Shown here: piece by piece, positions 1-38,627 of the stretch
Layout of the letters: every line of letters starts with the position of its first letter
Position numbering within the stretch: the first letter of the stretch is position 1
Origin: a virus
DNA: 58,087 bases
IMG/VR virus record: IMGVR_UViG_3300035128_000037
Location: 1 to 58,087 of that record
Strand: one strand, 5' to 3'
The notes under the pieces: model-generated
Seen by the model: only the letters and a program-made list of their open reading frames with translations
Told to the model about the DNA's origin: nothing
The model's database searches: none
Made by a program: the position numbers and the translations under genes

Positions 1-127
1 GCTGCTATTTTTGATAATAATATCTACGCATACCATGCCGATAATGCAGCGTTCGAGCCGGGAGCCGGAGATTGGTCCCTATCTGTAGTGTTCCGAGCAA
101 CATATTTGGTTGGATCTGATTTGGCTA
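1..127. repeat. Terminal direct repeat, exact copy of 57961..58087; most likely the assembly overlap of a circular or circularly permuted 57,960-bp genome
   Basis: Bases 1-127 read identically to 57961-58087. One reading frame continues without a stop across the junction. Confidence 0.95.
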
Positions 128-2005: not shown

Positions 2006-2014
2006 GGGGTATCA

Positions 2015-2395: not shown

Positions 2396-2416
2396 AAAAC
2401 GAAAGCGGTAACCAAG

Positions 2417-2677
2417 ATGGCAAACGGAGATATCTCAATCGAACAGGCCAGAAAGCTTCTTGTCGGGAAGCCAACAGACGAGCAGTTAGCCTTTATATAT
2501 CAAGCCATCATAAACCAGAATCAAACTTGCCGCAAACGTCCTACCGAAGTGTGCGACAAACGATATGTAGAAAAATCATGGCTGCGTGGAAAGATAATGT
2601 TTTTCAGCGGTGTCGGATCTGCGCTCACCTTTATCGGAGGCGTTACGGTCATGAAAATCCTTGGTCTTTTTGGATAA
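2417..2677 (+). CDS. Small C-terminally membrane-anchored protein (holin-like candidate by position)
   Basis: 86-aa ORF with a single C-terminal TM segment, IMFFSGVGSALTFIGGVTVMKILGLF. It lies upstream of the endolysin candidate. Confidence 0.5.
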   Translation: MANGDISIEQARKLLVGKPTDEQLAFIYQAIINQNQTCRKRPTEVCDKRYVEKSWLRGKIMFFSGVGSALTFIGGVTVMKILGLFG

Positions 2678-2728
2678 AATTGACTAATTAGGAGATAGTT
2701 TTACACATAGTTCGCAATAAGTGACGGT

Positions 2729-2896
2729 ATGAATAAGGAAAAACCACTCAGCAAAATATGTATCGGCTGCGGCTGTGTCAGCATAGATATTTGGTGCGAA
2801 GCGTGTGGCGACGCATATTTAAAACTATCTGTGATGGAGTTACGTAGAATAGCGGACATAAAAGAGGCAGAAATCAAGCATGGGGGAGAAACTTGA
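2729..2896 (+). CDS. Small zinc-ribbon protein (55 aa)
   Basis: Hand-translated ORF MNKEKPLSKICIGCGCVSIDIWCEACGDAY... with a CxxC...CxxC pattern. It is below the ORF-track length cut-off and has a weak SD. Confidence 0.35.
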   Translation: MNKEKPLSKICIGCGCVSIDIWCEACGDAYLKLSVMELRRIADIKEAEIKHGGET

Positions 2897-3125
2897 CGAG
2901 CTGATGAAAAAATTCCCGCCAGGGTACGACCAATCATGGAATTTCTGGCTATGTGAGCATGTGCCGCCCGGAAATGCTTGCAAGGGATGCCCCGTAATGA
3001 ACGAATCTTATTGTGAAGTTTTTGAAAAATTGACTACCGGAAAAAAATTAAAGGATTGCATTGATCAAATCAAGCCGTGCCTAACCAAGAAAGAGTTCAA
3101 GGATATTCACGATCCTAATAAATAG
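2880..3125 (+). CDS. Hypothetical Cys-rich protein
   Basis: 81-aa ORF on the same strand as its neighbours; no recognisable family. Confidence 0.5.
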   Translation: MGEKLDELMKKFPPGYDQSWNFWLCEHVPPGNACKGCPVMNESYCEVFEKLTTGKKLKDCIDQIKPCLTKKEFKDIHDPNK

Positions 3126-3137
3126 GGGGGCAAGTCA

Positions 3138-3719
3138 ATGATACCGAAATGGCCAAGTGTAGACGAATCAATAACCGGTATCGAGCGGTATAAAATCTAT
3201 CGTCGATACCTTCAAGACGGCGATATCCTCGAATGGGGATCCGACAAGATTATCGGTCGCATGATCAGAATGTTCACCAAAAAGGATGTCAATCATACCG
3301 GTGGCGTCATCCGGATGAAAGAGTTCGAGAACGAGCCTGGCGATCGAATCATGACAACCGAAGCTACCGAGAAGGGGTTTTGTATCAACTATCTTTCCAG
3401 GGCGCTGGAAGGGTATAAGGGCCGCGTTTACGTCCTCCCCCTAAAGTCACCCGGTCTCGATAATTATCGTCGATCAATCGTCCGTTGTGAGCTCGATATG
3501 GTAGGAATACCGTATGACTTCGGAGGCCTGTTTTCGAACATGTTTGGCCGGGTATCAATGAACGCCAGGCAGTTTTTCTGTTCAGAAGGAAAGGCGTTCT
3601 CTCTTGACAGCTCAGGCGTCATAACGTTACCACTCAATAAAAAGGGGAGAAAGATAGCCCCGCGGCCGGGAGATTTTTTTAAATTTGGCGTCACCCTTCC
3701 CCGGGTTAGAATCTATTAA
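3138..3719 (+). CDS. Permuted papain-fold (NlpC/P60, YiiX-like) peptidase; putative endolysin
   Basis: VNHTGGVI (His) followed by YDFGG...RQFFCSEG (Cys). This order is typical of permuted papain-like amidases. G-rich SD before the ATG. Lipoprotein and membrane genes follow. Confidence 0.55.
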   Translation: MIPKWPSVDESITGIERYKIYRRYLQDGDILEWGSDKIIGRMIRMFTKKDVNHTGGVIRMKEFENEPGDRIMTTEATEKGFCINYLSRALEGYKGRVYVLPLKSPGLDNYRRSIVRCELDMVGIPYDFGGLFSNMFGRVSMNARQFFCSEGKAFSLDSSGVITLPLNKKGRKIAPRPGDFFKFGVTLPRVRIY

Positions 3720-4074: not shown

Positions 4075-4683
4075 ATGGACTACATTATGGGGATCATCAA
4101 CGAGTATTGGCCACTGTTTATTGCTGCCGGCGTAGCGCTGGACTTCATTATCGGCAAAATTCCTGACAAGTACGTCCCGTACATAGGCGCACTGAGGCGG
4201 TTTTTCGGCGCGCTTAAGGGAAAAGGAAAGACCGGTGAAACCATCTGGGCTATACCCGCCGTTCTGGCCGCAACCCTTGGCGGTCTCGCGCTACTCGGAC
4301 TTTGCTTGGGCGGGTGCGCTACAAATCCGACAAAGGCCCAACACATTGTCGGCGCAAAGATCATAGCTCGGGAGGCAGGAAACCTCGTTGCCATGAATAA
4401 CCCTGAGATGGCCACAGCCGTCCGTGTTGGTTACAACATGATCAAAGATGAAGATGGCGATGAATTCAGGGCACTATTCGCAAATGGCCTTCAGCAGATG
4501 CTGGCCGCCGAGGGTGTGGCCGGATCGGAACGACTCGCAAAATCAGCAGCTGACCTGCTTGCCGTGTTCGGTTTGGATGTTCCCGACACTGGCATGATCG
4601 ATGCCGAGTACCTGGAAAAGTTTGCAGTGGGAGACATCAAAGAGATTGCCGTGGCTTTCATCGAGGGGATGGGTCCAGAATAA
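4075..4683 (+). CDS. Membrane protein (holin or spanin-like candidate)
   Basis: AAGGGAGG SD. Two hydrophobic segments, the second ending in the lipobox-like LGGC. It is the last gene before the convergent junction. Confidence 0.55.
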   Translation: MDYIMGIINEYWPLFIAAGVALDFIIGKIPDKYVPYIGALRRFFGALKGKGKTGETIWAIPAVLAATLGGLALLGLCLGGCATNPTKAQHIVGAKIIAREAGNLVAMNNPEMATAVRVGYNMIKDEDGDEFRALFANGLQQMLAAEGVAGSERLAKSAADLLAVFGLDVPDTGMIDAEYLEKFAVGDIKEIAVAFIEGMGPE

Positions 4684-4724
4684 GTAGAACACTAAGTTTG
4701 CCATCGTATATTTTCACGCTTCCC

Positions 4725-4738
4725 CCTATCCCTACGTT
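4725..4738 (-). repeat. Third, 14-nt core copy (CCTATCCCTACGTT) of the motif repeated at 13446 and 20049
   Basis: Direct reading; lies in the convergent intergenic gap 4684..4754. Confidence 0.7.
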
Positions 4739-4754
4739 TACGGCTGCGGTCAGC

Positions 4755-5453
4755 CTATTCCTCAATAGGGATAAGAAGCCGTTCAACCGAATCCCTATTC
4801 TTTGTAAAAATTACGTCGTCGTTAATCATCCACATTGCATCATAAAAAACGAACGTGCCGTTTTTCCATTTTGGTGCGAGGTCCGCCCAATTAACGCCTT
4901 TTTCGTAAAGCATTTCATGCATGTCTTTTGTATTTTTTTTGTGAAGCTGTTTATGCGAGTAGTAAGACTGAGAAAGCATATGGATTGAATTTCTTATCCA
5001 ATCCTGCTGTCGCCAAATAAAATAGTTGCAAACCTCATCCTTGGGAACATTGAACGCCCTGCTGTCAAATGTGGCGTACTTCGTTTGACAATAAAAAAAG
5101 CACTTTGAAAAGTAAGCAGAGGCAATACCGGCAGAAACGGAAACCATTTTTTGAAGGTTGTAATCAAACCAGGCATCGCTTGTTAGGCGTGCAAAATCAG
5201 TTACAAGAATTGATATTTCGTCTGACTGAATATAGGCACACTTCGCCCCCTGAATATTAGCGCATAACTCAACGGCGGTGTCTACCATGCTGTTTGCAAA
5301 CCAATCGTCAAACGGCTTCTCGCACCTTCTGGTCATGGTGTGAAACGCCTTGCCGTCAAGTCTGATTATTACCGGCATTCTGCGAGTAAGTTTTATCCTA
5401 TACCTGATTTCGTAGTTATCCTTCATACGATTTCCGATTGAATCTTTATTCAC
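4755..5453 (-). CDS. tRNA(His) guanylyltransferase (Thg1)-like 3'-5' nucleotidyltransferase
   Basis: IIRLDGKAFHTMT and YIQSDEISIL match the Thg1/TLP catalytic carboxylate motifs (RxDGxxFxxF, SDExS). Length 232 aa fits the family. Confidence 0.8.
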   Translation of the reverse strand: MNKDSIGNRMKDNYEIRYRIKLTRRMPVIIRLDGKAFHTMTRRCEKPFDDWFANSMVDTAVELCANIQGAKCAYIQSDEISILVTDFARLTSDAWFDYNLQKMVSVSAGIASAYFSKCFFYCQTKYATFDSRAFNVPKDEVCNYFIWRQQDWIRNSIHMLSQSYYSHKQLHKKNTKDMHEMLYEKGVNWADLAPKWKNGTFVFYDAMWMINDDVIFTKNRDSVERLLIPIEE

Positions 5454-12958: not shown

Positions 12959-13429
12959 TCACATATGCATGACAGCAGATAGCCCTTTGATTCGTTGGAA
13001 TTTTTCTTTAATGTCTATAATTGCGAGGACTTCATCCATGTTGCAGCAGATATAGTCCAACATTTTGACCATCAGTTCCGGCTCGCCGTTTTCAAGCAGT
13101 AGGATGGTGGTTTTACCCGCACCGGCACCCCACCCCATTTCAAGTGATGCACTGCGCCCGAACGGTTGAACGCCGACGAAAATGTCTGCCTGCTCCATAA
13201 CCTCGAAATCTGATTCGTAACCCGCCTCTGCAATAGGATGGCTCAAGCATTCCCTGTACTTTTTAGGTGTCCACTGCTTCCAGTTCGGTTCGATCTCCGA
13301 CCAGTGAAACCCCTGGTCACCCTCGCGCGGATTTTTGAAGTCGTAGACCTCATGCCCCGCTTCTCGCAGAGCGGTTATCACTTTCGGCTGGATCTCGTTT
13401 CGCCAGCTACTTGCGACATATATTTTCAA
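12959..13429 (-). CDS. Nucleoside 2-deoxyribosyltransferase-like protein
   Basis: TTG start after AAGGAGGG. MKIYVASSWRN...GHEVYDF...SASLEMGWGAGAGK resembles the deoxyribosyltransferase-like fold. Confidence 0.55.
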   Translation of the reverse strand: MKIYVASSWRNEIQPKVITALREAGHEVYDFKNPREGDQGFHWSEIEPNWKQWTPKKYRECLSHPIAEAGYESDFEVMEQADIFVGVQPFGRSASLEMGWGAGAGKTTILLLENGEPELMVKMLDYICCNMDEVLAIIDIKEKFQRIKGLSAVMHM

Positions 13430-13445
13430 AACACCCTCCTTGGTT

Positions 13446-13466
13446 CGAAAAACCTATCCCTACGTT
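13446..13466 (-). repeat. 21-nt perfect repeat CGAAAAACCTATCCCTACGTT, copy 1
   Basis: Identical to 20049..20069. Both lie 17-27 nt upstream of minus-strand gene starts. Confidence 0.9.
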
Positions 13467-13528
13467 GTTGGCCATGGGGTCCCACCCACCATTACCCGTC
13501 CGGCCGTGCATACCCACTCGGCTATTGT

Positions 13529-14527
13529 CTAAAATGAGGGCTTGGGCTTTCCCTGCCCTGTGTCCTTGCCGCTATCGTCCTCGTTCTGGTCCACCTGTTC
13601 ATCGTTTTCAGAGATCGCCCCATTTTCGGACTCTGCGGCGTTCTTCTGAATGCCCATATCTATCAGTTCACCCTGGTTCGCCTCCTTCTCGATCTCAGAT
13701 TTGTAATCGATCTCGTTATGGCCGGCATCCATGGCCGCGTACTCGTCGGCTTCGACCTGGGAAAACGAGGCGTTTATCTTCTTAGGATCAAGCACGATCT
13801 TTTTTACCGTCTGGTGCACAACCGTTTTGAGTTGCATGTCAGCCTCGTATGGCCCCCAAAACTTGGTGGTTCCGGATTTCGACTTGGCCCTGTTGAAGTC
13901 GGCAACGGTCAGGATGACCAGCTTGTTGAGTTCGCTGTTCTCGTACATGATGTATCCGAAGCCGCCGACAACTTTACCGCGGTCGAAAGGTTTTGGGATC
14001 TCAAATTCATAAGACTCAACCGCGTTGTCTATCGATTTTTTGATGACGGCGAACCTGTCGTTTTCGTGAACCAACTCATAGATGATGTCTACCGGAGGAT
14101 TCAGAGCCATTTTCCGGTAATAATAATCCTTTCCGGCGTACCCCACGCGCAGATCAACGTCATATTTTCCGGTTTTCCCGTTCAAATAGGGGATAGGATG
14201 GATATGATTCGGGATAAGCGCGTCGAGGCCGAGTTCAATTCGATGCATGGAATCGATAGCCAGCTTAGCAAGGTTGGCGTTTTCCCATGTGATGGGCAGG
14301 TTATTGGGGTTCTTCTTTGCCCTGTCGGTATCCAGGGCCCTCAATTGGAAGTCGATCTTCAGGAACATATGTTGTGCAAGCCGGCGCTGGTATCCGTCCA
14401 GGTTCACCTTGCCGCCGTCCTGGGCGTACTCTTTCATCACCATGTTGGTGAATCGTTCAGATTGATTCAGCTGGGTTTTTGTAAGGGCATTTTCCTCAAC
14501 CGGTGGTTTCTCGTTTTTGGTTGCCAT
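13529..14527 (-). CDS. recT: RecT-family single-strand annealing recombinase
   Basis: GGGAGGT SD then ATG 14527. RecT-like core (...GLDALIP...VGYAGKDYY...FWGPY...MQLKTVVHQ) with an acidic C-terminal tail. Confidence 0.7.
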   Translation of the reverse strand: MATKNEKPPVEENALTKTQLNQSERFTNMVMKEYAQDGGKVNLDGYQRRLAQHMFLKIDFQLRALDTDRAKKNPNNLPITWENANLAKLAIDSMHRIELGLDALIPNHIHPIPYLNGKTGKYDVDLRVGYAGKDYYYRKMALNPPVDIIYELVHENDRFAVIKKSIDNAVESYEFEIPKPFDRGKVVGGFGYIMYENSELNKLVILTVADFNRAKSKSGTTKFWGPYEADMQLKTVVHQTVKKIVLDPKKINASFSQVEADEYAAMDAGHNEIDYKSEIEKEANQGELIDMGIQKNAAESENGAISENDEQVDQNEDDSGKDTGQGKPKPSF

Positions 14528-14534
14528 CTCTGTT

Positions 14535-16571
14535 TTACCTCCCTTCAAATCTGAGTTCTTTATCTTTATCGCTGACAATAAGCCTGATGGTCTGGGAGCC
14601 AGACTCAAGCAGCTGGGTGACAGACTCGGCATTGTCGACGAACTTGACCATGCTGATGCCGTAGAAAGACGATAGTACGTTTTGGATATCGATTCCGACG
14701 TTCAGGCGCGAGGCGTTGTTCATCGTATTGTACTGTACGCCATCATGGGTGGCCACGCATACCGGCTCAATACCTCCGTTGATCTGCTTTTCGAACAGCT
14801 TGAACCTGGTGATAAGGAACTTGTCGTTGATTGAATCCTCGATCATGCGGGTCTTGGCCTGTTCGAACTCTCCAATCAGGTACAGCTCATGTTCCAGGCG
14901 CTCAAACTCCTTGGCGAGATTATTTTCCTCGTCGCGCAGTTCCTCTACGCGCTTTTCGGAAGTGGCCGCGGCCTCTATTTTCAGCTTTTCGGCCTTGAGA
15001 TCGTCGAGTGCCTTTTCGGCCTCGTCCACTTCGGCCTGTGCCTCTGTTGTGTCAGGCGAGTCGACCTCTTTTATGTGGTCGATCTTTCCCTTTATCGTTT
15101 CGACAGCGCGCTTCAGATCGTTGAGGGTCTTGTCGGGATGCTGTTTTGGTTCGACCGGGGCAACCTCTATGATTTCCGTGAGGGCTTTGGAAAGGTCCGA
15201 TTTCTGGCTTTCGAGGGAAACGAGTTTTTCGTTGATCTTCTCCAGTTCGTCGAGGCCCTTTTTAAGAGACGCCTGGCGCAATTCAAGGATGGCTTTTTTC
15301 TCTATTCCCTCCTCGTTTATTGCCTTGAATGTGTCGGCCTGGGCCTCGTTGAACTCGGCAAGCGCTTTTTCACTGGCTGCCTTTTGATCCTCCTCCGGTA
15401 TCGGTTGGCCGCAGCGTGAACATATGCCCTCAACGTCTGGAACGAACGTCTTTTCAGCTTCCGCATTAAACCGGGATCTCAGTTCAGCCAGATTCTTTTC
15501 TAATGAGGTTATGTCCTTTTCCAGCTCGGCGTTTTTGTCCTTTACCTCGCGCTGTTTGGCCTTCTGGTCCGATACCTTTTTAGAGGCGGTTTCGACATTT
15601 TTAGTTGCCTTGTCGATTTTCTCCTGACGCTCTTTGGCGATGGCATCCACCAGAATCTGGTGATCTTTTTTGAGTTGAGTCTCCCGGTCGATTACGGAGG
15701 CCTCGGCCTCGGCCAGCTTCTTTTTCAGGTCCGATATGGCGCCCGCGCTAAGGGCCTCTTTTTTCTTCCTGAGAACCTTGTCGGCCGACTTGATCTCCTC
15801 GAGGACCGTATCGTAATCCCTGAGAGAATCATCCTTGTCGCGGGTGCGCTCGTCGATCCTGGCCGGTATCTTGTCCAGCTCCTTGTTGATTTTGGTTTGG
15901 CGCTCCTTGGCTATTTTGCGATGATCGTCAAATGATCTCTTTTTGAGGATTTCGATCATGGCGGCATAGCCCGGGTCCAGTTCACCGTCAGGAAACATCC
16001 GGCGAATGACATCCTCGTCACTCAGATCAACTCCGCACACCTCGAAAAGGAGCTTTCTCCTGGCCTCTTGCTGGGTGCATTTCTTGCCGTTGTAGGTTGT
16101 CAGCACCTCGTTGAAAAATCTCGGGTTGGTCAGCAGCTTGAACGTCAATTCGGGGCAGATATCATCGACAACCCTTTTGAATTCCTTCTCCTGCAGCGGC
16201 ACCCCGTCAACGTAATAATCGTTTTTGTTGCCGGTGAAGGTGTCATGGGCATCACCGCGATGGCGCACCCATGTTTCGGTGTGGACCTTTTTGAGGGATT
16301 TTTCAACTCCATCGATAATCAGGACGGCCTCAACCATGTGCTCCTCGTCACCAGATACCACCTCCCCGTTTTCATCGACCGTTTTTATCTGAAAGTTCGC
16401 TTGGTCGAGAGAGTCCTTGTTGAAAAGGAGCCAGTAGAAAGCGTCGGCAAGGCGGGTCTTTCCACTCTTGTTATCACCAAAAACATCGGTGTCATGGCCG
16501 TCCGGTTCAATCGTCAGGCTGCCGCCCTTGAAATTTTTCAATGATAGTCTTTTTAGCCGAATTTCCTTCAT
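14535..16571 (-). CDS. SMC/Rad50/SbcC-like ATPase with coiled coil and CxxC hook
   Basis: Walker A GDNKSGKT. Long Glu/Lys-rich coiled coil interrupted by CSRCGQP. C-terminal ATPase lobe. Confidence 0.7.
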   Translation of the reverse strand: MKEIRLKRLSLKNFKGGSLTIEPDGHDTDVFGDNKSGKTRLADAFYWLLFNKDSLDQANFQIKTVDENGEVVSGDEEHMVEAVLIIDGVEKSLKKVHTETWVRHRGDAHDTFTGNKNDYYVDGVPLQEKEFKRVVDDICPELTFKLLTNPRFFNEVLTTYNGKKCTQQEARRKLLFEVCGVDLSDEDVIRRMFPDGELDPGYAAMIEILKKRSFDDHRKIAKERQTKINKELDKIPARIDERTRDKDDSLRDYDTVLEEIKSADKVLRKKKEALSAGAISDLKKKLAEAEASVIDRETQLKKDHQILVDAIAKERQEKIDKATKNVETASKKVSDQKAKQREVKDKNAELEKDITSLEKNLAELRSRFNAEAEKTFVPDVEGICSRCGQPIPEEDQKAASEKALAEFNEAQADTFKAINEEGIEKKAILELRQASLKKGLDELEKINEKLVSLESQKSDLSKALTEIIEVAPVEPKQHPDKTLNDLKRAVETIKGKIDHIKEVDSPDTTEAQAEVDEAEKALDDLKAEKLKIEAAATSEKRVEELRDEENNLAKEFERLEHELYLIGEFEQAKTRMIEDSINDKFLITRFKLFEKQINGGIEPVCVATHDGVQYNTMNNASRLNVGIDIQNVLSSFYGISMVKFVDNAESVTQLLESGSQTIRLIVSDKDKELRFEGR

Positions 16572-17097: not shown

Positions 17098-17481
17098 TCA
17101 ATAATCAATCGGGGTGATTAGCGGGGCCCACCCGTTGTAGGCCCCGCTCTCCGTAAAACCTTCGCTTTTGGCTAATCGCCCATCAGCATCACCCCCCATC
17201 GCCGCCAGCTTTGAATAGTCGCGCTCGGCCGGCAGCATCATGTTGGTTGGTACGAGCGCGAAAAATATTCCGGAGATAAAAAGAATTGCTATCAAAATAA
17301 GGTTCCACTTGTTGAAAGGCACAAATGCGTGGTTGGCGATCCAGGTGGCTTCCTTCTGCCTTTCGGATTTAACCCGCCTGATCTCTTCGTTGTCGTCCCT
17401 CAAAGACGATCTGAAAAACCAGGTCATGAGTGCAACAGCTATCCCGATACAAGCGATTGTGAAAAACGTTATCTCAATCAT
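17098..17481 (-). CDS. Membrane protein (2 TM)
   Basis: ATG 17481; TM segments IEITFFTIACIGIAVALMTWFF and LILIAILFISGIFFALV. Confidence 0.55.
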   Translation of the reverse strand: MIEITFFTIACIGIAVALMTWFFRSSLRDDNEEIRRVKSERQKEATWIANHAFVPFNKWNLILIAILFISGIFFALVPTNMMLPAERDYSKLAAMGGDADGRLAKSEGFTESGAYNGWAPLITPIDY

Positions 17482-17574
17482 GTCCTTTCTCCTTTTTCTG
17501 GTAACCCAAAAAACCCGCCCACTTCCACCCACTCGCCTACCTTGTGGGCGGGTTCGATTGACTACCAGCGCACC

Positions 17575-18009
17575 CTATTCTTCCTGCTCGCGCAGCTTCT
17601 TGGTTGGCTTAAGGTATTCATCCAAGACGCTCAGGATATGCTCCACCTGCTTCTGTTTCAATATCCCCGGGAAGGGGTGGGAATATATCCTCATCTGCCT
17701 GATACCGATGACAACGTTGGAGATTTCGTCGTCACGATCGTATATTTTGTGCCAGATGGTCTGCGCCTTTGGTAGGGCCAGCTTCAAATCACCCTTGTTG
17801 CGGACGACATCTGATTTTCTGATTGTCATGGGCTCCAGGGTGTTCACGATCATTTCGTTTCCCCTCACCATGTATTCGTACATCCCGCTCTTGGCCTGGG
17901 TGAAGCCTTCAGTGGCTATGGCCGGCGTCGATGCCACGACCAACATCAGCATGGCGGTCAAAAAGATGATTCCGGTCATAAATTTGATTCTGAAAAAAGT
18001 GTAGTTCAT
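17575..18009 (-). CDS. Secreted protein
   Basis: Signal peptide ...IIFLTAMLMLVVASTPAIA|TEG. Confidence 0.55.
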   Translation of the reverse strand: MNYTFFRIKFMTGIIFLTAMLMLVVASTPAIATEGFTQAKSGMYEYMVRGNEMIVNTLEPMTIRKSDVVRNKGDLKLALPKAQTIWHKIYDRDDEISNVVIGIRQMRIYSHPFPGILKQKQVEHILSVLDEYLKPTKKLREQEE

Positions 18010-23563: not shown

Positions 23564-24676
23564 GTGATAGGTTTCAGTGGCTTGAATTATTACAACGACA
23601 ACGACAAATTTTCAGTAAAATGGCTAAGGTGTCTGATCGAGTCAAATCTAATACCGCACGGTGAAGTCGATGACAGAAGCATCACAGAAATCAAACCAGC
23701 AGAACTTAAAGGATTTAATCAATGTCACTTTTTCGCAGGCATTGGAGGATGGTCTTACGCACTTGCATTGGCTGATTGGCCCAGGAACAGACAAGTGTGG
23801 ACCGGAAGCTGCCCATGCCAGCCATTCAGTGTCGCGGGGAAAGGCGAAGGAATTAGAGACGATAGACACCTTTGGCCCGCTTTTCGGTGGCTTATCGCGC
23901 AATGCAGACCTGCAACAGTATTTGGAGAGCAGGTTGCGAGCCTCGATGGACGTGAATGGCTCGCTGGAGTACGTCTTGACCTGGAAGCGATGGGATATCG
24001 ATTCGGGGCCGCCGATCTGTGCGCTGCGGGCGTCGGCGCGCCGCACATACGGCAACGACTTTGGTGGGTGGCCGACTCCAACCAGCAAGGAAAAAGCTGG
24101 TGGGGAATACAAAGACCCGGAAAAAGCTTTGAAGCGTGCTCTGGGTCCGCATGCAAACGATCTTCGGGATTTTGCGCAAATGGCGGGGTGGCCCACACCA
24201 ACAGATTCAATGATGACAGAACAGGACATGGCACAGGCGATGACGGCCGGAAACAGTCTGAAACGAAAGGGCTATCAGGAGTCGAAGATTTTTTCGGGAT
24301 GGCAGACACCATCCGCAACGGACGGAAAGAGAGGAGGAATAGGGATCACGGATGGAATGACAGGGCAGAGTCTTACCCAAATGGCGAAAATGACCGGTTG
24401 GCCGACCCCAACAGCAACGGATTCATCAAAGAGAGGGAGCGTATCACCGAGACCTGGGATGATGGGTTTGTCGGAAACGGCCCCGCTTTCTGGGAAAATA
24501 GCAGAATCGTCATATGTAGGGACGGAAAAAATAGACGGATACCGGCTGAACCCCGCTTTTTCCCTTTGGCTGATGGGTTACCCACCGGAACTGTGGGCCT
24601 ACTGCGTGGTGCCGGAAATGCGATCAATCCATACGTTGGCGCAAAGTTTATAGAGGCGTTTTTATCAATTCAGTGA
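23564..24676 (+). CDS. DNA (cytosine-5)-methyltransferase (frame 2 reading)
   Basis: Motif I FFAGIGGWS, IV GSCPCQPFSVAGKG, VI VFGEQV, VIII GAPHIRQRLWWVA and X GAGNAINPYVGAKFI are all in this frame. Confidence 0.8.
   Translation: MIGFSGLNYYNDNDKFSVKWLRCLIESNLIPHGEVDDRSITEIKPAELKGFNQCHFFAGIGGWSYALALADWPRNRQVWTGSCPCQPFSVAGKGEGIRDDRHLWPAFRWLIAQCRPATVFGEQVASLDGREWLAGVRLDLEAMGYRFGAADLCAAGVGAPHIRQRLWWVADSNQQGKSWWGIQRPGKSFEACSGSACKRSSGFCANGGVAHTNRFNDDRTGHGTGDDGRKQSETKGLSGVEDFFGMADTIRNGRKERRNRDHGWNDRAESYPNGENDRLADPNSNGFIKERERITETWDDGFVGNGPAFWENSRIVICRDGKNRRIPAEPRFFPLADGLPTGTVGLLRGAGNAINPYVGAKFIEAFLSIQ
23661..24653 (+). CDS. Alternate-frame (frame 3) ORF inside the methyltransferase gene, with GW(P/Q)TP(T/S) repeats
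   Basis: 330 codons open. Four GWPTPT-type repeats differ mainly at frame-3 third codon positions. Ends with LNPAFSLWLMGYPPELW. Confidence 0.4.
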   Translation: MKSMTEASQKSNQQNLKDLINVTFSQALEDGLTHLHWLIGPGTDKCGPEAAHASHSVSRGKAKELETIDTFGPLFGGLSRNADLQQYLESRLRASMDVNGSLEYVLTWKRWDIDSGPPICALRASARRTYGNDFGGWPTPTSKEKAGGEYKDPEKALKRALGPHANDLRDFAQMAGWPTPTDSMMTEQDMAQAMTAGNSLKRKGYQESKIFSGWQTPSATDGKRGGIGITDGMTGQSLTQMAKMTGWPTPTATDSSKRGSVSPRPGMMGLSETAPLSGKIAESSYVGTEKIDGYRLNPAFSLWLMGYPPELWAYCVVPEMRSIHTLAQSL

Positions 24677-27675: not shown

Positions 27676-28293
27676 ATGGTAAAGCGAGTCGATTGGGTCC
27701 CTATAGAACGCGAGATACGCGCCGGCCAACTATCCAACCGAGAAATTGCCCGTCAATACGACATTTCCGAAACAGCTATCCGAAAGAGAATAAAATCAAG
27801 AGGTATAAAGAGGGACTTGTCAAAGCGGGTGCGAGAGGAGGTTCGCACAAAACTGGTTCGCGGAGACGTTCGCACCGACAATGCGAACACAGATTCGGTA
27901 TCAGATGATCAGATTGTTGACGAGGCGTCTGACAGGGCATTAAGTATTGTTAGGTCACACCGTAAGTCGATCTTAAGCGGAAGGGTAATAGCAAACCAGC
28001 TTTCAGACCAATTGTCGCTCGTAGCCGACAACCGCGAGGCCATAGAGCAGGCCATAATTGACGACACTCCACCGGATGAAAACGGAAAGATCGATATCAA
28101 AAGGCGAAACGCCATGTTAAAGGCGGTCTCGCTTCCTGCCCATGCAGGCGTATTGAGGGATCTTTCTGTTGTTTTGAAAAACATCATACCCCTTGAGAGA
28201 CAGGCGTTCAATATAGACGAGACTGCAGACAGCGACGGTCCGGACGCCGTTTTGATTTCGTATCGAAAGAAAGACCAGGATGACGAAAAATAG
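27676..28293 (+). CDS. terS: Terminase small subunit
   Basis: N-terminal HTH (LSNREIARQYDISETAIRKRIK). 205 aa, directly upstream of and overlapping terL. Confidence 0.7.
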   Translation: MVKRVDWVPIEREIRAGQLSNREIARQYDISETAIRKRIKSRGIKRDLSKRVREEVRTKLVRGDVRTDNANTDSVSDDQIVDEASDRALSIVRSHRKSILSGRVIANQLSDQLSLVADNREAIEQAIIDDTPPDENGKIDIKRRNAMLKAVSLPAHAGVLRDLSVVLKNIIPLERQAFNIDETADSDGPDAVLISYRKKDQDDEK

Positions 28294-30805
28294 CATACCG
28301 AATTTCGATACCGAAATAGCAAAGTTTCAGCCTAAGCAGGTGTCTGCGCTTGATCACCTTGACTCAGGAATGATCAAGTTTTTGCTTTATGGTGGTGCAC
28401 TCGGGGGTGGGAAAAGCTATTTTCTCAGGTGGTACGCAGTTCGCAGGTTGATGATTTTGTTCTCATGGGGGTTCAAAGGGGCGGTAGGAATGATCGCCTG
28501 TGAGAATTATCCTTCACTGAAGGACAGGCAAATCTCTAAGATTGGCGTAGAGTTCCCATCTTGGCTCGGAAAATACTACGACAAGCACAAATTATACAGC
28601 AGCTGCTTCATTCTCGACAAAAGATGGGGGTCTGGTGTAATCTGTTTCAGAAACCTTGACGATCCAGCAAAGTACGCATCATCCGAGTTCGCATTCATCC
28701 TTGTCGATGAGCTCACCAAAAACAAAATTGAGGTATTCACGTTTTTAAGAACACGACTCAGGTGGCCAGGGCTTCCAGACGTTGAGTGCCAGTTTGTCGG
28801 GGCTTCCAACCCGGGATCGGTCGGCCATGGATGGGTAAAAGCGCTTTGGATGGATGGAGTATTCGGAAAAGAATGGATCGAGCCTATAGATTATCGAGGC
28901 ATGTTCGCATATGTTCCTTCGACCGCGGCCGACAACAAATATCTTGGGGATGATTATTGGGCTATGCTTTCGTCGTTGCCGGAAAATATCAGAGAGGCCT
29001 TCAAGGACGGCAATTGGAATGTGTTTGTTGGTCAGGCCTTCCCCCAATTCAATCGAGAAACCCACGTTATAAGGCCAACTAAGATACCGGAAAATGCCCC
29101 GATGTACACCACGTTCGATTGGGGGTACGGGAAACCGTTCTCCTGGGGCTGGTGGTGGGTCGACACAGACGGCAGGATATACCGTTTTGCTGAGTGGTAC
29201 GGGTGGTGCGACATTCCAAACGAGGGTTTGAGGCTTTCGGATAAAGATATTGCAATCGGAGTTCTTGAGCGTGAAAAGCAGCTTGGAATAAAGAGGTCAC
29301 AGATAACCGCAAGTCTTGCCGGACACGACTGCTGGAATAAGAAACCAGATTATAAAGGCGGCGGCCAGGGACCATCGACCGCAGATGTATTTGCGTCTTT
29401 CGGTATTTACATGACGCCAGGAGATTCTTCCAGGGCATTAAAGATCAGGCAATTCCGAGAGCGCCTACGGGTTCCAACTGACGGCAGTATGCCGATGATG
29501 ATGATCAGCAATACATGCAAGCAATTTATCAGAACCATAAGCGACCTCGTTGTCGACGAGAACAATATCGAGGACGTTGAAACAGATGGCGAAGATCACT
29601 GTATTGCGGGTGGGACGATGGTTTGCACACCATGGGGGTTGATCGCAATCAGAGATCTTGTCGGCACCCATGGTCTTGTCCTAACGGCAGGTGGGTATTG
29701 GACGGATTTCGACGGGTGCAGTCTCACGCGCCGCGATGCAGAAACGGTTAAAGTCTCTTTTTCAGATGGTAGGTCAATAACATGCACGCCTGACCATAAA
29801 TTTCTAACAAAAAAAGGATATTGGGTTTCTGCAAAATGGTTGCTTGACGAAGAATGCCATGATAGTATCGGCCTCAAAAAACACATCAAGGAAGCGCTAT
29901 CATGCGGGTCAAAATCATCAGCGATACAACGCAGGAGTTTGACGGCAAACGGTACTGGTTGTGCGGGTTCTATTATCAACGCAAAGGGTCGAGGCTACAT
30001 CGGGCAGTTTGGGAATACCACAACGGCCCTATCCCCAATGGAGCACACATTCACCACCGAGACAAAAACAGATCAAACAACCAGCCAGAGAACCTCGAAT
30101 GCAATCGGTCCACGCGACACATGTCGTTACATGCCAGGCAAAACGACCATTCGTCCTGGCAAGCCTCCATGCGTCAAGGCGCGGCGAAGTGGCATAGAAG
30201 CGATGCGGGCCGCGAATGGCACAAAGAACAGTACGAAAAACACTGCAAGAAGGCTCTTAACCAGGTGGTCCGAAAATCATGCGAATACTGTGGCACTGAA
30301 TTCGAAGGTAAAAAATACGCCCGGTTCTGTACTCGCCGTTGTCAGCAGAAGAATTGGTACGAATCGCAACGATCTGAACGGGAGTGCTCCGTTTGCGGTG
30401 TGGCGTTTATCGGAAGCGGACGCGCTTGTTCGAAATCTTGTGCTGCAAGACTCGCATGGGAGAAGCGCAAGGGTTGTTAGCGTAACCCCCTCTGGACGAC
30501 AAGACGTTTATTGCCTCAATGCCGCCATTACCCACGCATTTGCTGTGGAGGGCGGCATTGTTGTTCATAATTGCTACGACGAGGCGGCCCTCCTGTGCAT
30601 GTATCGGCCGCTTAGCCTCGAAATGCCGGAAGCGCCAAAAGCATCTCATGACAAACGAATCGAAAACCTTTACCGCGGCGACCAGGACGATTACGAGGAG
30701 AACGCTGCATACGAGCAGGAATGGGCCATGAGATACCTGGGGGCCGGAGAAAGCGACATAGACGCGGAGGAATACGACGATGGAGACCTTGTTAGGACAA
30801 TATAA
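28280..30805 (+). CDS. terL: Terminase large subunit containing an intein
   Basis: Walker A-like GGALGGGKS and Walker B ILVDE. Nuclease region ...ETDGEDH / CYDEAALLCMY is interrupted by a Hint-type insertion. Confidence 0.85.
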   Translation: MTKNSIPNFDTEIAKFQPKQVSALDHLDSGMIKFLLYGGALGGGKSYFLRWYAVRRLMILFSWGFKGAVGMIACENYPSLKDRQISKIGVEFPSWLGKYYDKHKLYSSCFILDKRWGSGVICFRNLDDPAKYASSEFAFILVDELTKNKIEVFTFLRTRLRWPGLPDVECQFVGASNPGSVGHGWVKALWMDGVFGKEWIEPIDYRGMFAYVPSTAADNKYLGDDYWAMLSSLPENIREAFKDGNWNVFVGQAFPQFNRETHVIRPTKIPENAPMYTTFDWGYGKPFSWGWWWVDTDGRIYRFAEWYGWCDIPNEGLRLSDKDIAIGVLEREKQLGIKRSQITASLAGHDCWNKKPDYKGGGQGPSTADVFASFGIYMTPGDSSRALKIRQFRERLRVPTDGSMPMMMISNTCKQFIRTISDLVVDENNIEDVETDGEDHCIAGGTMVCTPWGLIAIRDLVGTHGLVLTAGGYWTDFDGCSLTRRDAETVKVSFSDGRSITCTPDHKFLTKKGYWVSAKWLLDEECHDSIGLKKHIKEALSCGSKSSAIQRRSLTANGTGCAGSIINAKGRGYIGQFGNTTTALSPMEHTFTTETKTDQTTSQRTSNAIGPRDTCRYMPGKTTIRPGKPPCVKARRSGIEAMRAANGTKNSTKNTARRLLTRWSENHANTVALNSKVKNTPGSVLAVVSRRIGTNRNDLNGSAPFAVWRLSEADALVRNLVLQDSHGRSARVVSVTPSGRQDVYCLNAAITHAFAVEGGIVVHNCYDEAALLCMYRPLSLEMPEAPKASHDKRIENLYRGDQDDYEENAAYEQEWAMRYLGAGESDIDAEEYDDGDLVRTI
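29600..30571 (+). mobile_element. Intein in TerL (Cys1 ... VVHN / Cys+1)
   Basis: The N-terminal block begins CIAGGTMVC (TGT at 29600). The C-terminal blocks read DVYCLNAAITHAFAVEGGIVVHN then C (TGC 30572). Total 324 codons. Confidence 0.8.
29902..30480 (+). CDS. HNH (HNH_3-type) homing endonuclease nested in the intein in a different reading frame
   Basis: Frame 1 ORF with AAGGAAG SD. LHRAVWEYHNGPIPNGAHIHHRDKNRSNNQPENLE...H, plus CEYCG...CTRRC and CSVCG...CSKSC modules. Confidence 0.75.
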   Translation: MRVKIISDTTQEFDGKRYWLCGFYYQRKGSRLHRAVWEYHNGPIPNGAHIHHRDKNRSNNQPENLECNRSTRHMSLHARQNDHSSWQASMRQGAAKWHRSDAGREWHKEQYEKHCKKALNQVVRKSCEYCGTEFEGKKYARFCTRRCQQKNWYESQRSERECSVCGVAFIGSGRACSKSCAARLAWEKRKGC

Positions 30806-37652: not shown

Positions 37653-38627
37653 ATGACACTCACTTTTGATGAACTCGAATCAGTCACCAACGACTATTTC
37701 GCTGCAGACGGCGGCAAGGCGGTCGATCTGTACTTTTACACCTCTTTTCTGCTCAACTATCTGTTGAAACAGAAAAAAGGTATCATGGAACGCCCACCGG
37801 GAGGCGAGAAGTTCCGCATCCCGCTCGAGTACGACGGCCAGGAAGCAGGATTCTACGGCCGTGGAGACACCATCAGTTCGGATTTCCGCGACAACATCAA
37901 CGCGGCCTACTTCGAGCCGAAGCATGCCTATGGTAACGCCACCATCCTGCGCATCGATGAGCTGAAAAACAATGGCGAGTACGCCGAGGTTCAGCTGGCT
38001 CAGTCAAAGGTTGCCGGTGCCCAGAAGTCCATTACCTCCCTGCTGGCGGGAAGCATCTATGACCTGCCTGGTGGAAGCTCCAAGCGTCTCACCGGTCTAC
38101 GGGCATTGTGCAACGAGACCGCAACGACAGCCTATGGCGGCATTGCCGAAAACGATCTTGCCGCGGCAGATGGAACAAAGCCGTGGGAGGGCAAGATGAC
38201 CTCCACTGCAACCACGATCCAACTCAATACCCTGAGAACAGGTCGAAGTGCGGCCAAGCTGCGCGACGGAATGTACGGAAAACCCAACCTGGTTGTCACC
38301 ACCGAGACCAATTACAACGTCGTTGCCGATATCCTTCAGGCTCAACAGCGATTCACGGACGGCAAGGAAACCGTCAAGGCCGGCTTTACCGGTTTGTGGT
38401 TCGAGGGGATGGAGATCTTCCCCGACGATTACTGCCCGGCATCCCATATGTTCTGGCTGAACTCCAAGCACATCGGATTCGCGGTTTACAAGACCGGCAT
38501 GTTCATGCGTTCCAAGTGGCGCGTCGTTCCCGACAGCCCCGATGACAAGACCATGAAGATCTATTTCGACGGGAACATGGTTTGCAACAACCGCAAGGCC
38601 CATCAGGGGTACAGCTCCATCAGTTAG
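37653..38627 (+). CDS. Major capsid protein
   Basis: 324 aa after the scaffold gene, with a strong SD. General resemblance to podovirus or P22-type coat proteins. Confidence 0.65.
   Translation: MTLTFDELESVTNDYFAADGGKAVDLYFYTSFLLNYLLKQKKGIMERPPGGEKFRIPLEYDGQEAGFYGRGDTISSDFRDNINAAYFEPKHAYGNATILRIDELKNNGEYAEVQLAQSKVAGAQKSITSLLAGSIYDLPGGSSKRLTGLRALCNETATTAYGGIAENDLAAADGTKPWEGKMTSTATTIQLNTLRTGRSAAKLRDGMYGKPNLVVTTETNYNVVADILQAQQRFTDGKETVKAGFTGLWFEGMEIFPDDYCPASHMFWLNSKHIGFAVYKTGMFMRSKWRVVPDSPDDKTMKIYFDGNMVCNNRKAHQGYSSIS

What the first reader, a model, noticed from the sequence alone, without database searches (positions are those of the whole stretch)
29600..30571. TerL intein carries an HNH homing-endonuclease gene in a different reading frame while the TerL frame stays open
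The TerL ORF (frame 2) is interrupted inside its C-terminal nuclease motif. It reads ...ETDGEDH|CIAGGTMVC... and resumes ...GGIVVHN|CYDEAALLCMY. Cys1, the terminal HN and the +1 Cys are the hallmarks of a class-1 intein. About 100 N-terminal and 32 C-terminal codons look like Hint splicing blocks. The central ~190 codons in the TerL frame are low-complexity (SCGSKSSAIQRRSLTANGTG...). Frame 1 over exactly that stretch (29902..30480) encodes a well-formed HNH_3-type endonuclease. Its motif is LHRAVWEYHNGPIPNGAHIHHRDKNRSNNQPENLE...H, it has two Cys4-like modules, and it has its own ATG and an AAGGAAG SD. Canonical inteins carry their endonuclease in frame. So-called fractured genes place a free-standing endonuclease gene between split intein halves. 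Here the host frame stays contiguous and stop-free over 579 nt of out-of-frame endonuclease gene. Under a uniform-codon null, (61/64)^193 is roughly 1e-4, which suggests selection for dual coding. This could be an intermediate state between contiguous and split inteins.
Basis: partly seen in the sequence, partly recalled or inferred. Interest (0 to 1): 0.85.

Follow-up and report, generated by a model that had tools for sequence, protein, structure and literature searches.

The report
Out-of-frame HNH gene inside terminase intein
The phage's essential DNA-packaging gene carries a self-splicing intein, and a separate homing-endonuclease gene sits in another reading frame of the intein's spacer; this is real and widespread, but similar cases were described in 2025-2026 preprints.

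Summary
TerL (28280..30805, 841 aa) carries a class-1 intein (29600..30571: Cys1, TPDH, HN|Cys+1) at the motif that intein-less homologs read as EDH|xYDE. A 192-aa HNH_3 (I-HmuI-like) gene with its own SD and ATG (29902..30480) lies one base out of frame over the intein's spacer.

- **Which frame codes:** The HNH frame is under purifying selection. Its third codon position varies most, and amino-acid identity is 58% against 30% for the TerL frame over the same bases. Its AlphaFold2 pLDDT is 92.6, against about 30 for the TerL-frame spacer. The TerL frame is only kept free of stops.
- **How common it is:** Among 88 unique relatives, 56 are nested with the host frame at +1 and 11 at +2. Fifteen sit between split intein halves, 6 have no intein detected, and none is fused in frame. 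Split relatives carry 3-30 stops in those frames.
- **Independent decay:** A variant that is otherwise 100% identical lost 241 + 161 nt of the HNH gene, and together the two deletions restore the TerL frame.

This is a new member with a different endonuclease family. Splicing, separate translation and homing are inferred, not shown.

The parts
28280..30805 (+). TerL (terminase large subunit) precursor ORF, 841 aa, frame 2, including the stop codon
   Evidence: ORF list. Pfam Terminase_3 and PHROG terminase large subunit. 2295 homologs.
28280..29599 (+). N-extein, TerL residues 1-440, ending ...TDGEDH
   Evidence: Alignment A1 with intein-less homologs, which read EDH|(I/V/C)YDEACH. AlphaFold2 pLDDT is mostly 70-95.
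29600..30571 (+). Class-1 intein, 324 aa (TerL residues 441-764), from Cys1 to the terminal His-Asn
   Evidence: Sequence. TIGR01445 above its cutoff. Pfam Intein_splicing at 33 bits. The whole segment is absent from intein-less homologs.
29600..29899 (+). N-terminal splicing region (blocks A and B, including CIAGGT and TPDH)
   Evidence: TIGR01445 covers intein residues 1-70. A custom N-intein HMM scores 148 bits. AlphaFold2 pLDDT 66-81 with beta strands.
29900..30463 (+). Spacer in the TerL frame (TerL residues 541-728): stop-free, with no predicted structure. It is the out-of-frame reading of the HNH gene.
   Evidence: No Pfam hit. pLDDT 24-37. 30% amino-acid identity to L001 against 58% for the HNH frame. 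Zero stops in this frame, against 6 in the third frame.
30464..30571 (+). C-terminal splicing region (blocks F and G, ...ARVVSVTPSGRQDVYC...GGIVVHN)
   Evidence: A custom C-intein HMM scores 80 bits. pLDDT about 79. The terminal Asn is conserved in 52 of 52 relatives.
30572..30805 (+). C-extein, starting with Cys+1 (CYDEAALLCMY...), plus the stop codon
   Evidence: The spliced product would be 517 aa and read ...GEDH-CYDEAA...
29902..30480 (+). Free-standing HNH_3 (I-HmuI-like) homing-endonuclease gene, 192 aa, frame 1 (-1 relative to TerL), with TAG stop at 30478..30480 inside block F of the intein
   Evidence: Pfam HNH_3 E = 1.2e-15. PHROG 15471 E = 8e-36. PDB profile hit to I-HmuI, 1U3E. 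AlphaFold2 pLDDT 92.6. Codon position 3 varies most.
29992..30132 (+). HNH catalytic core (RLHRAVWEYHNGPIP...HIHHRDKNRSNNQPENLE...H73...H77)
   Evidence: H33, R34, H51, H52, N60, N64 and H73 are invariant in a 32-sequence alignment. Coordinates.
30280..30441 (+). Two CxxC...C...C zinc-ribbon-like modules of the HNH protein (C127/130/143/147 and C162/165/176/180), presumed to bind DNA
   Evidence: C127, C130 and C143 are invariant and C147 nearly so. Weak Foldseek similarity to the YacG zinc finger. Coordinates.
29888..29894 (+). Shine-Dalgarno-like AAGGAAG, 7 nt upstream of the HNH ATG
   Evidence: Sequence. GGAG, GAGG or AGGA lies upstream of 35 of 69 nested relatives, and 61 of 69 start with ATG.
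29858..29904 (+). Predicted RNA hairpin: CAUGAUAGU pairs with GCUAUCAUG and buries the HNH start codon
   Evidence: RNA fold, z = -1.95. Across 61 relatives the start region has mean z = -1.05 against -0.23 for an internal control, and 15 against 2 loci have z < -2. This is suggestive only.

Best explanation
A mini-intein sits in the nuclease motif of the essential terminase large subunit. Its spacer, at the position where canonical inteins carry their endonuclease domain, holds a free-standing HNH homing-endonuclease gene read one base out of frame.

1. **TerL route.** Ribosomes reading TerL make an 841-aa precursor. The roughly 100-aa N-terminal and 36-aa C-terminal Hint segments are joined by a roughly 190-aa unstructured spacer. 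They fold together and splice by the class-1 route (Cys1, TxxH, terminal HN, Cys+1). This releases a 517-aa TerL with the restored motif ...GEDH-CYDE...
2. **HNH route.** Ribosomes that start at the internal SD and ATG (29902) make a 192-aa I-HmuI-like HNH enzyme with two zinc-ribbon DNA-binding modules. This enzyme presumably nicks or cuts TerL alleles that lack the element in co-infecting relatives. Repair would then copy the endonuclease gene, and usually the intein with it, into the cut allele (homing).
3. **Why the frame stays open.** TerL is essential, so any stop codon in the TerL frame across the HNH gene is lethal unless the intein halves can splice in trans. Selection therefore keeps that frame open by limiting codon choice in the HNH gene. 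The amino-acid sequence of the spacer itself is free to drift.

**Shown here:** the gene arrangement, conservation of both frames, which frame is under amino-acid selection, conservation of the splicing residues, and independent decay of the HNH gene.

**Inferred, not shown:** protein splicing, separate translation of the HNH protein, its cleavage target, and homing.
For: - **Anatomy and profile hits:**
- **Precise insertion:** intein-less homologs read EDH|xYDEACH at the insertion point.
- **Which frame is selected:** HNH codon position 3 varies most (0.65 against 0.48 and 0.45). HNH-frame amino-acid identity is 58% against 30% for the TerL frame over the same bases.
- **Structure prediction:** the HNH product has AlphaFold2 pLDDT 92.6. 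The TerL-frame spacer scores 24-37, while the flanking Hint segments score 66-81.
- **Survey:** among 88 unique relatives, 56 are nested at +1, 11 are nested at +2, 15 lie between split halves and none is fused in frame. Every nested copy has zero stops in the host frame, against 3-30 in split relatives.
- **Splicing residues:** in 52 unique nested inteins, Cys1 is present in 52, TxxH in 49, the terminal Asn in 52 and a Cys or Ser at +1 in 52.
- **Independent decay of the HNH gene:** L020 and L021/L022 are 100% identical except for deletions of 241 and 161 nt. These remove the HNH motif, and together (402 nt) they keep TerL in frame. L023 and L024 differ by an in-frame indel of 516 nt.
- **Own translation signals:** SD and ATG are common in relatives.
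- **Catalytic residues:** all invariant HNH residues are intact in the window copy.
- **Precedent for the model:** bioRxiv 10.1101/2025.01.02.630785.
Against: - There is no experimental evidence for splicing, for a separate HNH protein, or for cleavage.
- Pfam Intein_splicing is just under its gathering score (33 against 35.8 bits).
- The Foldseek match of the HNH model to I-HmuI is weak (E = 0.24).
- For this locus alone, stop avoidance is only modestly significant (P = 0.013-0.047).
- Only about half of the relatives show a clear SD.
- No sigma-70-like promoter was found inside the intein, so HNH expression depends on the TerL transcript.
- The survey loci share ancestry, so the counts are not independent events.
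- The neighbour-joining tree has no support values.
Confidence: 0.82

Rival explanations
1. Assembly or sequencing artefact. Two compensating indels displace an ordinary in-frame HNH intein domain into another frame.
For: This is a single metagenomic assembly, and no reads are available here.
Against: - The HNH ORF has its own ATG and SD, with an in-frame stop 36 nt upstream and its own TAG stop.
- The same offset arrangement appears in 67 unique, divergent loci from independent assemblies. These include the cultured phages phiCDHM19 and TJE1 and isolate genomes.
- No relative has the endonuclease in the intein frame.
- The identical TerL product is recorded on two contigs.
Confidence: 0.01
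2. The HNH ORF is a silent relic. The intein still splices and the TerL frame is open only because TerL is essential, but the endonuclease is no longer made or active in this phage.
For: - HNH genes in this family do decay (L021/L022, L024, P0011).
- The SD is only moderate (AAGGAAG), and the start codon is predicted to be buried in a hairpin.
- No expression data exist.
Against: - Codon-position pattern and amino-acid conservation show purifying selection on the HNH frame across the family.
- All invariant residues are intact in the window copy.
- The ORF is full length, and its model has pLDDT 92.6.
- A relic would be expected to accumulate stops in its own frame, since only the TerL frame is protected.
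Confidence: 0.1
3. The endonuclease is made by programmed -1 ribosomal frameshifting from the TerL frame, for example at the A6 run 29876..29881. The product would be a TerL-N/intein-N/HNH fusion rather than an independently initiated protein.
For: - The A6 run lies in the 36-nt window where both frames are open, just upstream of the HNH ATG.
- The HNH frame is -1 relative to TerL.
Against: - The A-run is not conserved in relatives, whereas SD plus ATG is.
- In most relatives the HNH frame has a stop only 0-12 codons upstream of its ATG.
- In split relatives the same gene is plainly free-standing.
Confidence: 0.03
4. The insertion does not splice. It is tolerated as a surface loop, as proposed for the ShiLan HNH insertion in a phage methylase, or this TerL is non-functional.
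For: Out-of-frame HNH insertions without any intein exist (PMC11855218).
Against: - The insertion sits inside the conserved EDH|xYDE nuclease motif.
- Cys1, TxxH, HN and Cys+1 are conserved across 52 relatives.
- The Hint profiles match.
- The contig is a complete phage genome with a 127-nt terminal repeat and only one TerL.
Confidence: 0.03

Closest known systems
[quoted passage not shown]
   Same: - The endonuclease gene is on the same strand, lies between the splicing blocks, and is read in another frame ('frame 3' relative to the intein, the same -1/+2 offset as here).
- The host frame stays open and its translation is unstructured.
- Hosts include the terminase large subunit.
- The proposed origin is invasion of an intein by a free-standing endonuclease gene.
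   Different: - The endonuclease family here is HNH_3 (I-HmuI-like) with zinc ribbons, not endonuclease VII-like. In that survey HNH occurred only in frame.
- Here the lineage is found in phages and prophages of many bacterial phyla, and both frame offsets occur.
- Here the same endonuclease family is also found between split intein halves.
Cyanobacterial dnaX intein with an out-of-frame LAGLIDADG endonuclease (Gorbalenya 1998 as cited; bioRxiv 10.64898/2026.09.14.751524)
   Same: - An overlapping ORF inside the intein encodes the endonuclease.
- Selection acts on the endonuclease frame, while the intein frame is relaxed over the overlap.
- Mini-intein alleles coexist with full ones.
   Different: It is a cellular gene (dnaX) with a LAGLIDADG enzyme. 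No split relatives carrying the same endonuclease are reported.
Fractured genes: split inteins with a free-standing endonuclease gene between the halves (Dassa et al. 2009, PMC2677866)
   Same: - A free-standing endonuclease gene lies at the endonuclease position of an intein.
- Its 3' end overlaps the downstream intein part.
- Relatives of the window's HNH gene show exactly this layout in TerL. The C-half has its own SD and ATG or GTG, overlapping the HNH stop by 4-20 nt.
   Different: - In the window the host ORF is contiguous, not split.
- Dassa's endonucleases were GIY-YIG and Vsr-like. HNH was only predicted there to be able to fracture genes.
ShiLan-type hidden HNH insertion in phage DNA methylases (Arsenault et al. 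2025, PMC11855218)
   Same: An out-of-frame HNH gene sits inside a host ORF that stays stop-free.
   Different: That element has no intein, so the insertion is thought to remain in the protein as a loop. Here a Hint domain flanks the insertion and should remove it.
I-HmuI (PDB 1U3E), intron-encoded HNH nicking endonuclease of Bacillus phage SPO1
   Same: It is the closest solved relative of the nested ORF by sequence profile (E = 3e-4) and the top Foldseek hit. Both have a modular HNH plus DNA-binding layout.
   Different: I-HmuI is encoded in a group I intron. Its C-terminal DNA-binding part is helical rather than zinc-ribbon. Similarity is remote (19% identity, Foldseek E = 0.24).

Membership tests
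Class-1 intein (Hint domain) | Nucleophile (Cys, Ser or Thr) as first residue | tested here: met
   Cys441 at 29600..29602. Cys1 is present in 52 of 52 unique nested relatives.
Class-1 intein (Hint domain) | Block B TxxH motif | tested here: met
   TPDH in ...SITCTPDHKF. TxxH is present in 49 of 52 relatives.
Class-1 intein (Hint domain) | Terminal (His-)Asn followed by Cys, Ser or Thr at +1 | tested here: met
   HN764|C765. The terminal Asn is present in 52 of 52 relatives, and +1 is Cys in 49 and Ser in 3.
Class-1 intein (Hint domain) | Match to curated Hint or intein profiles above threshold | tested here: met
   NCBIfam TIGR01445 intein_Nterm scores 29.8-32.9 bits against a 24.5-bit cutoff. 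Pfam Intein_splicing, at 33 bits, is just below its 35.8-bit gathering score, so the two libraries disagree slightly.
Class-1 intein (Hint domain) | Precise in-frame insertion at a conserved site, absent from close homologs | tested here: met
   Intein-less TerL homologs read EDH|(I/V/C)YDEACH (alignment A1).
Class-1 intein (Hint domain) | Autocatalytic protein splicing | not testable with these tools
   Needs expression followed by western blot or mass spectrometry.
HNH_3 / I-HmuI-like homing endonuclease | HNH_3 profile match above threshold | tested here: met
   Pfam PF13392 scores 57.3 bits against a 24.8-bit cutoff. PHROG 15471 'HNH endonuclease' E = 7.8e-36.
HNH_3 / I-HmuI-like homing endonuclease | Conserved catalytic His and Asn residues of the beta-beta-alpha-metal motif | tested here: met
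   H51, H52, N60, N64 and H73 are invariant across 32 homologs and present in the window copy. They align with the I-HmuI core.
HNH_3 / I-HmuI-like homing endonuclease | Fold similarity to a solved HNH homing endonuclease | tested here: inconclusive
   The model has pLDDT 92.6. The best Foldseek hit is I-HmuI, but at E = 0.24 and TM 0.27. The model is extended and multi-domain (pTM 0.47).
HNH_3 / I-HmuI-like homing endonuclease | Mobility: presence/absence polymorphism at a fixed site, site-specific cleavage | tested here: inconclusive
   Alleles with and without the HNH gene occur in otherwise identical or 90%-identical TerL inteins. These look like deletions rather than proven invasions. Cleavage is not testable here.
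Intein with homing endonuclease encoded in a separate reading frame (Gosselin et al. 2025; dnaX intein) | Endonuclease ORF lies between the splicing blocks in a frame other than the intein frame, and the intein frame stays open across it | tested here: met
Intein with homing endonuclease encoded in a separate reading frame (Gosselin et al. 2025; dnaX intein) | The intein-frame reading of that stretch has no recognisable structure, while the alternative frame folds as a nuclease | tested here: met
   pLDDT 24-37 for the intein frame against 92.6 for the HNH frame. The spacer has no Pfam hit.
Intein with homing endonuclease encoded in a separate reading frame (Gosselin et al. 2025; dnaX intein) | Endonuclease type as described (endonuclease VII-like, LAGLIDADG or VSR-like) | tested here: not met
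   The enzyme here is HNH_3. This places the element in the same architectural class but in a different endonuclease family.
Fractured gene / naturally split intein (Dassa et al. 2009) | N- and C-intein halves in separate ORFs flanking the endonuclease gene | tested here: not met
   In the window both halves lie in one 841-codon ORF. The feature is met in 15 unique relatives such as L010, L052 and L084.

The most novel reading that the evidence does not exclude
This HNH_3/TerL-intein lineage may be a natural evolutionary series in which one endonuclease family occurs in several states. It is nested out of frame in contiguous inteins at both frame offsets, and it is free-standing between naturally split intein halves. 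Changes between these states appear to have happened several times. If so, it would be the clearest available system for testing two models: the 'endonuclease invades a mini-intein' model and the 'gene-breaking' model for the origin of bifunctional and split inteins. Cultured examples exist (phiCDHM19, TJE1, an Ideonella sakaiensis prophage, and a split version in Staphylococcus intermedius). In addition, a start-codon hairpin may couple HNH translation to passage of ribosomes translating TerL.
Probability: 0.4. Interest if true: 0.65.

Novelty: new member of a known kind. Interest (0 to 1): 0.5.

Why it matters
- **An unannotated gene inside a well-known one.** Gene callers report only TerL at these loci, in metagenomes and in GenBank phages such as phiCDHM19 and TJE1. 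A conserved endonuclease gene is therefore hidden inside one of the most-used phage marker genes.
- **Not a rarity.** Out-of-frame endonuclease genes in inteins have been described as rare. Here the arrangement is the main state of a large HNH lineage spread over many bacterial phyla.
- **A link to split inteins.** The same endonuclease family occurs in contiguous and in naturally split TerL inteins. This gives a concrete, testable series for how inteins acquire endonucleases and how split inteins arise. It is also a source of new natural split inteins for protein engineering.
- **A clean case of overlap under asymmetric selection.** One frame needs only to stay free of stops, while the other is selected for its protein sequence.

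Tried and rejected
- **DNA search of GenBank phages.** blastn with the TerL gene found nothing. A tblastn search with the HNH protein was needed to find cultured examples.
- **Wide alignment as a metagenome query.** I replaced it with the 8-sequence alignment A3.
- **First shuffle script.** It timed out and was rewritten.
- **Uniform-codon null.** I rejected it as too generous and used synonymous shuffles, phage codon usage and non-nested relatives instead.
- **Foldseek on the HNH model.** It gave only weak hits, so the family assignment rests on sequence profiles.
- **Promoter scan.** No sigma-70-like promoter lies inside the intein, and the overall count is no higher than in shuffled sequence.
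- **Programmed -1 frameshifting at the A6 run.** I considered this and set it aside because the run is not conserved.
- **In-frame HNH fusions.** I looked for them in 101 loci from the viral and metagenome collections and found none.
- **Other copies in the window.** A search for a second intein or a second HNH copy found none.
- **RNA genes.** tRNA and Rfam scans of the window were empty.


Full report

Yes. The window holds an 841-codon ORF at 28280..30805 (+, frame 2). A 192-codon ORF at 29902..30480 (+, frame 1) is nested inside it.

Pfam places Terminase_3 and Intein_splicing on the long ORF and HNH_3 (E = 1.2e-15) on the nested one. PHROGs agrees: terminase large subunit, and HNH endonuclease at E = 8e-36.

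The junctions read ...TDGEDH|CIAGGT... at 29600 and ...GGIVVHN|CYDEAA... at 30571/30572. In a 23-sequence alignment, intein-less TerL homologs read EDH|(I/V/C)YDEACH. The 324-aa segment is therefore a precise insertion in a conserved nuclease motif.

NCBIfam's intein N-terminal model passes its cutoff (29.8 against 24.5 bits). Pfam Intein_splicing is just under its own (33 against 35.8 bits). AAGGAAG lies at 29888..29894, seven bases before the ATG. The two Cys4 modules are at C127/130/143/147 and C162/165/176/180.

The HNH frame is closed 36 nt upstream of its ATG and ends with its own TAG, which falls inside block F of the intein.

**2. Is the open TerL frame more than chance?**

Better nulls for this one locus give weaker values:
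- Shuffling synonymous codons within the HNH gene gives a mean of 2.25 stops in the TerL frame and P(0) = 0.047.
- Back-translating the HNH protein with the phage's own codon usage gives a mean of 3.55 stops and P(0) = 0.013.
- Other genes of the window carry 4.5 stops per 100 codons in the +1 frame.

The single locus is therefore suggestive. The comparative data are decisive. I used the HNH protein to fetch 19 viral loci, 80 metagenome loci out of 235 confirmed matches and 80 loci from species-representative genomes.

After removing duplicates, the viral and metagenome sets plus two further loci and the window gave 88 unique HNH sequences:

| State | Unique sequences |
|---|---|
| Nested, host frame at +1 as in the window | 56 |
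| Nested, host frame at +2 | 11 |
| Between intein halves in separate ORFs (split) | 15 |
| No intein detected | 6 |
| Sharing a frame with the intein without an intervening stop | 0 |

All 67 nested copies, at 28-58% HNH identity to the window, have no stop in the host frame. The remaining frame typically has 6-26 stops. Split relatives carry 3-13 stops at +1 and 5-30 at +2. In the genome collection, 28 of 48 loci are nested and 9 are split.

**3. Which frame codes for a protein in the overlap?**

In a codon alignment of 14 nested HNH genes, the third position of HNH codons differs most (0.65 against 0.48 and 0.45). That position is the second position of the TerL frame. Between the window and L001, the HNH frame is 58% identical and the TerL frame 30% identical over the same bases.

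With a 32-sequence alignment, AlphaFold2 gives the HNH product a mean pLDDT of 92.6. In a model of the whole TerL precursor:
- the extein scores mostly 70-95;
- the N-terminal Hint part scores 66-81;
- the C-terminal strands score about 79;
- residues 524-729 score 24-37.

The spacer alone matches no Pfam family. The HNH frame therefore carries the protein-level constraint, and the TerL frame is only kept open.

The closest solved relative of the HNH protein is I-HmuI (profile E = 3e-4). I-HmuI is also the top Foldseek hit, though weakly. All invariant residues of the family are present in the window copy.

**4. Is the intein likely to work?**

In 52 unique nested inteins whose junctions could be located automatically:
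- Cys1 is present in 52;
- TxxH is present in 49;
- the terminal Asn is present in 52;
- the +1 residue is Cys in 49 and Ser in 3.

TerL is the only terminase large subunit in what appears to be a complete genome. The first 127 nt recur at 57961..58087, and there is no second intein or second HNH copy. Splicing is inferred from this, not shown.

**5. Independent fate of the endonuclease gene.**

L020 carries a full nested HNH gene. L021 (an NCBI MAG contig) and L022 are identical to L020 over all 2073 (L021) or 2072 of 2073 (L022) aligned bases, apart from two deletions of 241 and 161 nt. Each deletion alone would shift the TerL frame. Together (402 nt) they restore it while removing the HNH catalytic core. 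This is direct evidence that the TerL frame is what selection protects when the endonuclease decays.

L023 and L024 (90% identical) differ by an in-frame indel of 516 nt that covers the HNH gene. Mini-inteins of about 135 aa at the same site also exist (P0017, P0039).

**6. Relation to split inteins.**

L010, L011 and L018 carry the same HNH family between a TerL-N plus N-intein ORF and a C-intein plus TerL-C ORF. The other split loci show the same layout. The N-half ends up to 41 nt (104 nt in L100) inside, or shortly before, the HNH gene. The C-half starts with its own ATG, GTG or TTG and usually an SD, overlapping the HNH stop by 4-20 nt in most loci.

This is the fractured-gene layout of Dassa et al. 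2009 (PMC2677866), here with an HNH enzyme. In a neighbour-joining tree of the HNH proteins, the split and +2 states each appear in at least three places. The tree has no support values, so repeated switching is a hypothesis, not a result.

**7. Expression of the HNH gene.**

Of 69 unique nested copies, 61 start with ATG and 35 have GGAG, GAGG or AGGA 5-20 nt upstream. No sigma-70-like promoter was found inside the intein.

The start codon of the window copy is predicted to pair with an upstream inverted repeat, CAUGAUAGU with GCUAUCAUG (z = -1.95). Across 61 relatives, the start region is more structured than an internal control. Mean z is -1.05 against -0.23, and 15 against 2 loci fall below z = -2. 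This recalls the hairpins reported at free-standing endonuclease genes, but it is only suggestive.

An A6 run at 29876..29881 could in principle allow -1 frameshifting into the HNH frame. It is not conserved in relatives.

**8. What is known.**

- Gosselin, Arsenault and Gogarten (bioRxiv 10.1101/2025.01.02.630785) describe actinophage inteins, including TerL inteins, whose endonuclease is encoded in a different frame or on the opposite strand. Their same-strand case is an endonuclease VII-like enzyme in 'frame 3', and HNH occurred only in frame. They propose invasion of an intein by a free-standing endonuclease gene.
- The cyanobacterial dnaX intein has an out-of-frame LAGLIDADG gene. This was noted by Gorbalenya in 1998 and re-analysed in bioRxiv 10.64898/2026.09.14.751524.
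- An out-of-frame HNH gene without any intein sits in a phage methylase (PMC11855218).

The architecture is therefore known. What is new here is the endonuclease family, the breadth of the lineage, the occurrence of both frame offsets, and the direct link to split inteins that carry the same endonuclease.

Cultured phages have the arrangement with the HNH gene unannotated:
- Clostridium phage phiCDHM19: TerL 443..2842, HNH frame 2056..2721;
- Tetrasphaera phage TJE1.

Isolate genomes have it as well. Piscinibacter (Ideonella) sakaiensis 201-F6 carries the nested form, and Staphylococcus intermedius NCTC 11048 carries the split form.

**9. Verdict.**

It is a new member of a recently described kind, not a new kind. 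Interest is moderate at 0.5. A specialist would not be astonished, but the lineage offers an unusually complete and experimentally accessible series for questions about how inteins gain endonucleases and how they become split.

Noticed in passing
window 23564..24676 (+), overlapping ORF 23661..24653 (+): This looks like a second two-frame region in the same phage.
- Frame A is a C5 cytosine methyltransferase (motifs I-VIII, with motif X at the C-terminus).
- Frame B (+1) carries four GWPTPT repeats and a motif-IX-like RLNPxFSxWLMGYP. It is the gene JGI called, and it has 3393 homologs with no Pfam domain.
- Two divergent homolog loci (L188, L189) also keep both frames open, while the third frame is closed.
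- In a three-sequence codon alignment, selection switches from A to B and back to A along the gene. This fits a large catalytic domain in frame A and a small, target-recognition part in frame B of its linker.
- Only three sequences were compared, and one literature search found no description.
   Followed up: partly
window 1..127 and 57961..58087: The first 127 nt recur exactly at the end of the window. The contig is therefore a complete, circularly assembled or terminally redundant phage genome of about 57.96 kb. It has no tRNA genes and no Rfam hits.
   Followed up: yes
L185 (Clostridium phage phiCDHM19, NC_028996, 443..2842) and L186 (Tetrasphaera phage TJE1, NC_019930, terL 13379..15565): The published genomes of these cultured phages annotate a single long TerL. 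Each contains an unannotated nested HNH ORF of this family, with the TerL frame at +1 relative to it. phi CD119, Acinetobacter phage Highwayman and Rhodobacteraceae phage LS06-2018-MD07 also have HNH matches, lying under an annotated terminase large subunit (or, for phi CD119, a hypothetical protein).
   Followed up: partly
L150 (Piscinibacter/Ideonella sakaiensis 201-F6, NZ_BBYR01000045.1); L120 (Staphylococcus intermedius NCTC 11048): Isolate genomes carry the nested form (L150, an 867-codon host ORF) and the split form (L120) of the same element. These are possible experimental systems.
   Followed up: no
L016 3893..4348, between ORFs 2131..3693 and 4481..5083: A more distant HNH gene lies between two ORFs. 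By eye these look like the N- and C-terminal parts of a T7-like RNA polymerase (the second ends ...YAFA). This may be a gene fractured by an endonuclease without any intein.
   Followed up: no
P0088 (815-aa TerL homolog): A different intein (Pfam Hint_2) is inserted six residues upstream (EDVD|CFVAGT...GVLSAN|TDGEDH). Its spacer contains ...YTGLYGKMSKAQF..., which resembles the out-of-frame reading of the HNH WEYHNGPIP motif. The same kind of nested gene may therefore occur in a second intein at a neighbouring site.
   Followed up: no
P0044, P0036, P0008, P0011 (TerL homologs): The same TerL family also hosts canonical in-frame LAGLIDADG inteins at the Walker A motif (GGGK|...HN|S). Some alleles carry two inteins: a LAGLIDADG intein plus the intein at the EDH|C site. 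P0011 has a shortened spacer.
   Followed up: partly
window 29858..29904: The inverted repeat CATGATAGT / GCTATCATG is predicted to bury the HNH start codon in a hairpin. Start regions of 61 relatives are on average more structured than internal controls.
   Followed up: partly
window 17240..18004 (+) and 37653..38627 (+): These two other ORFs have unusually long open runs in their +2 frame (178 and 161 codons) compared with the rest of the genome. I did not examine them.
   Followed up: no
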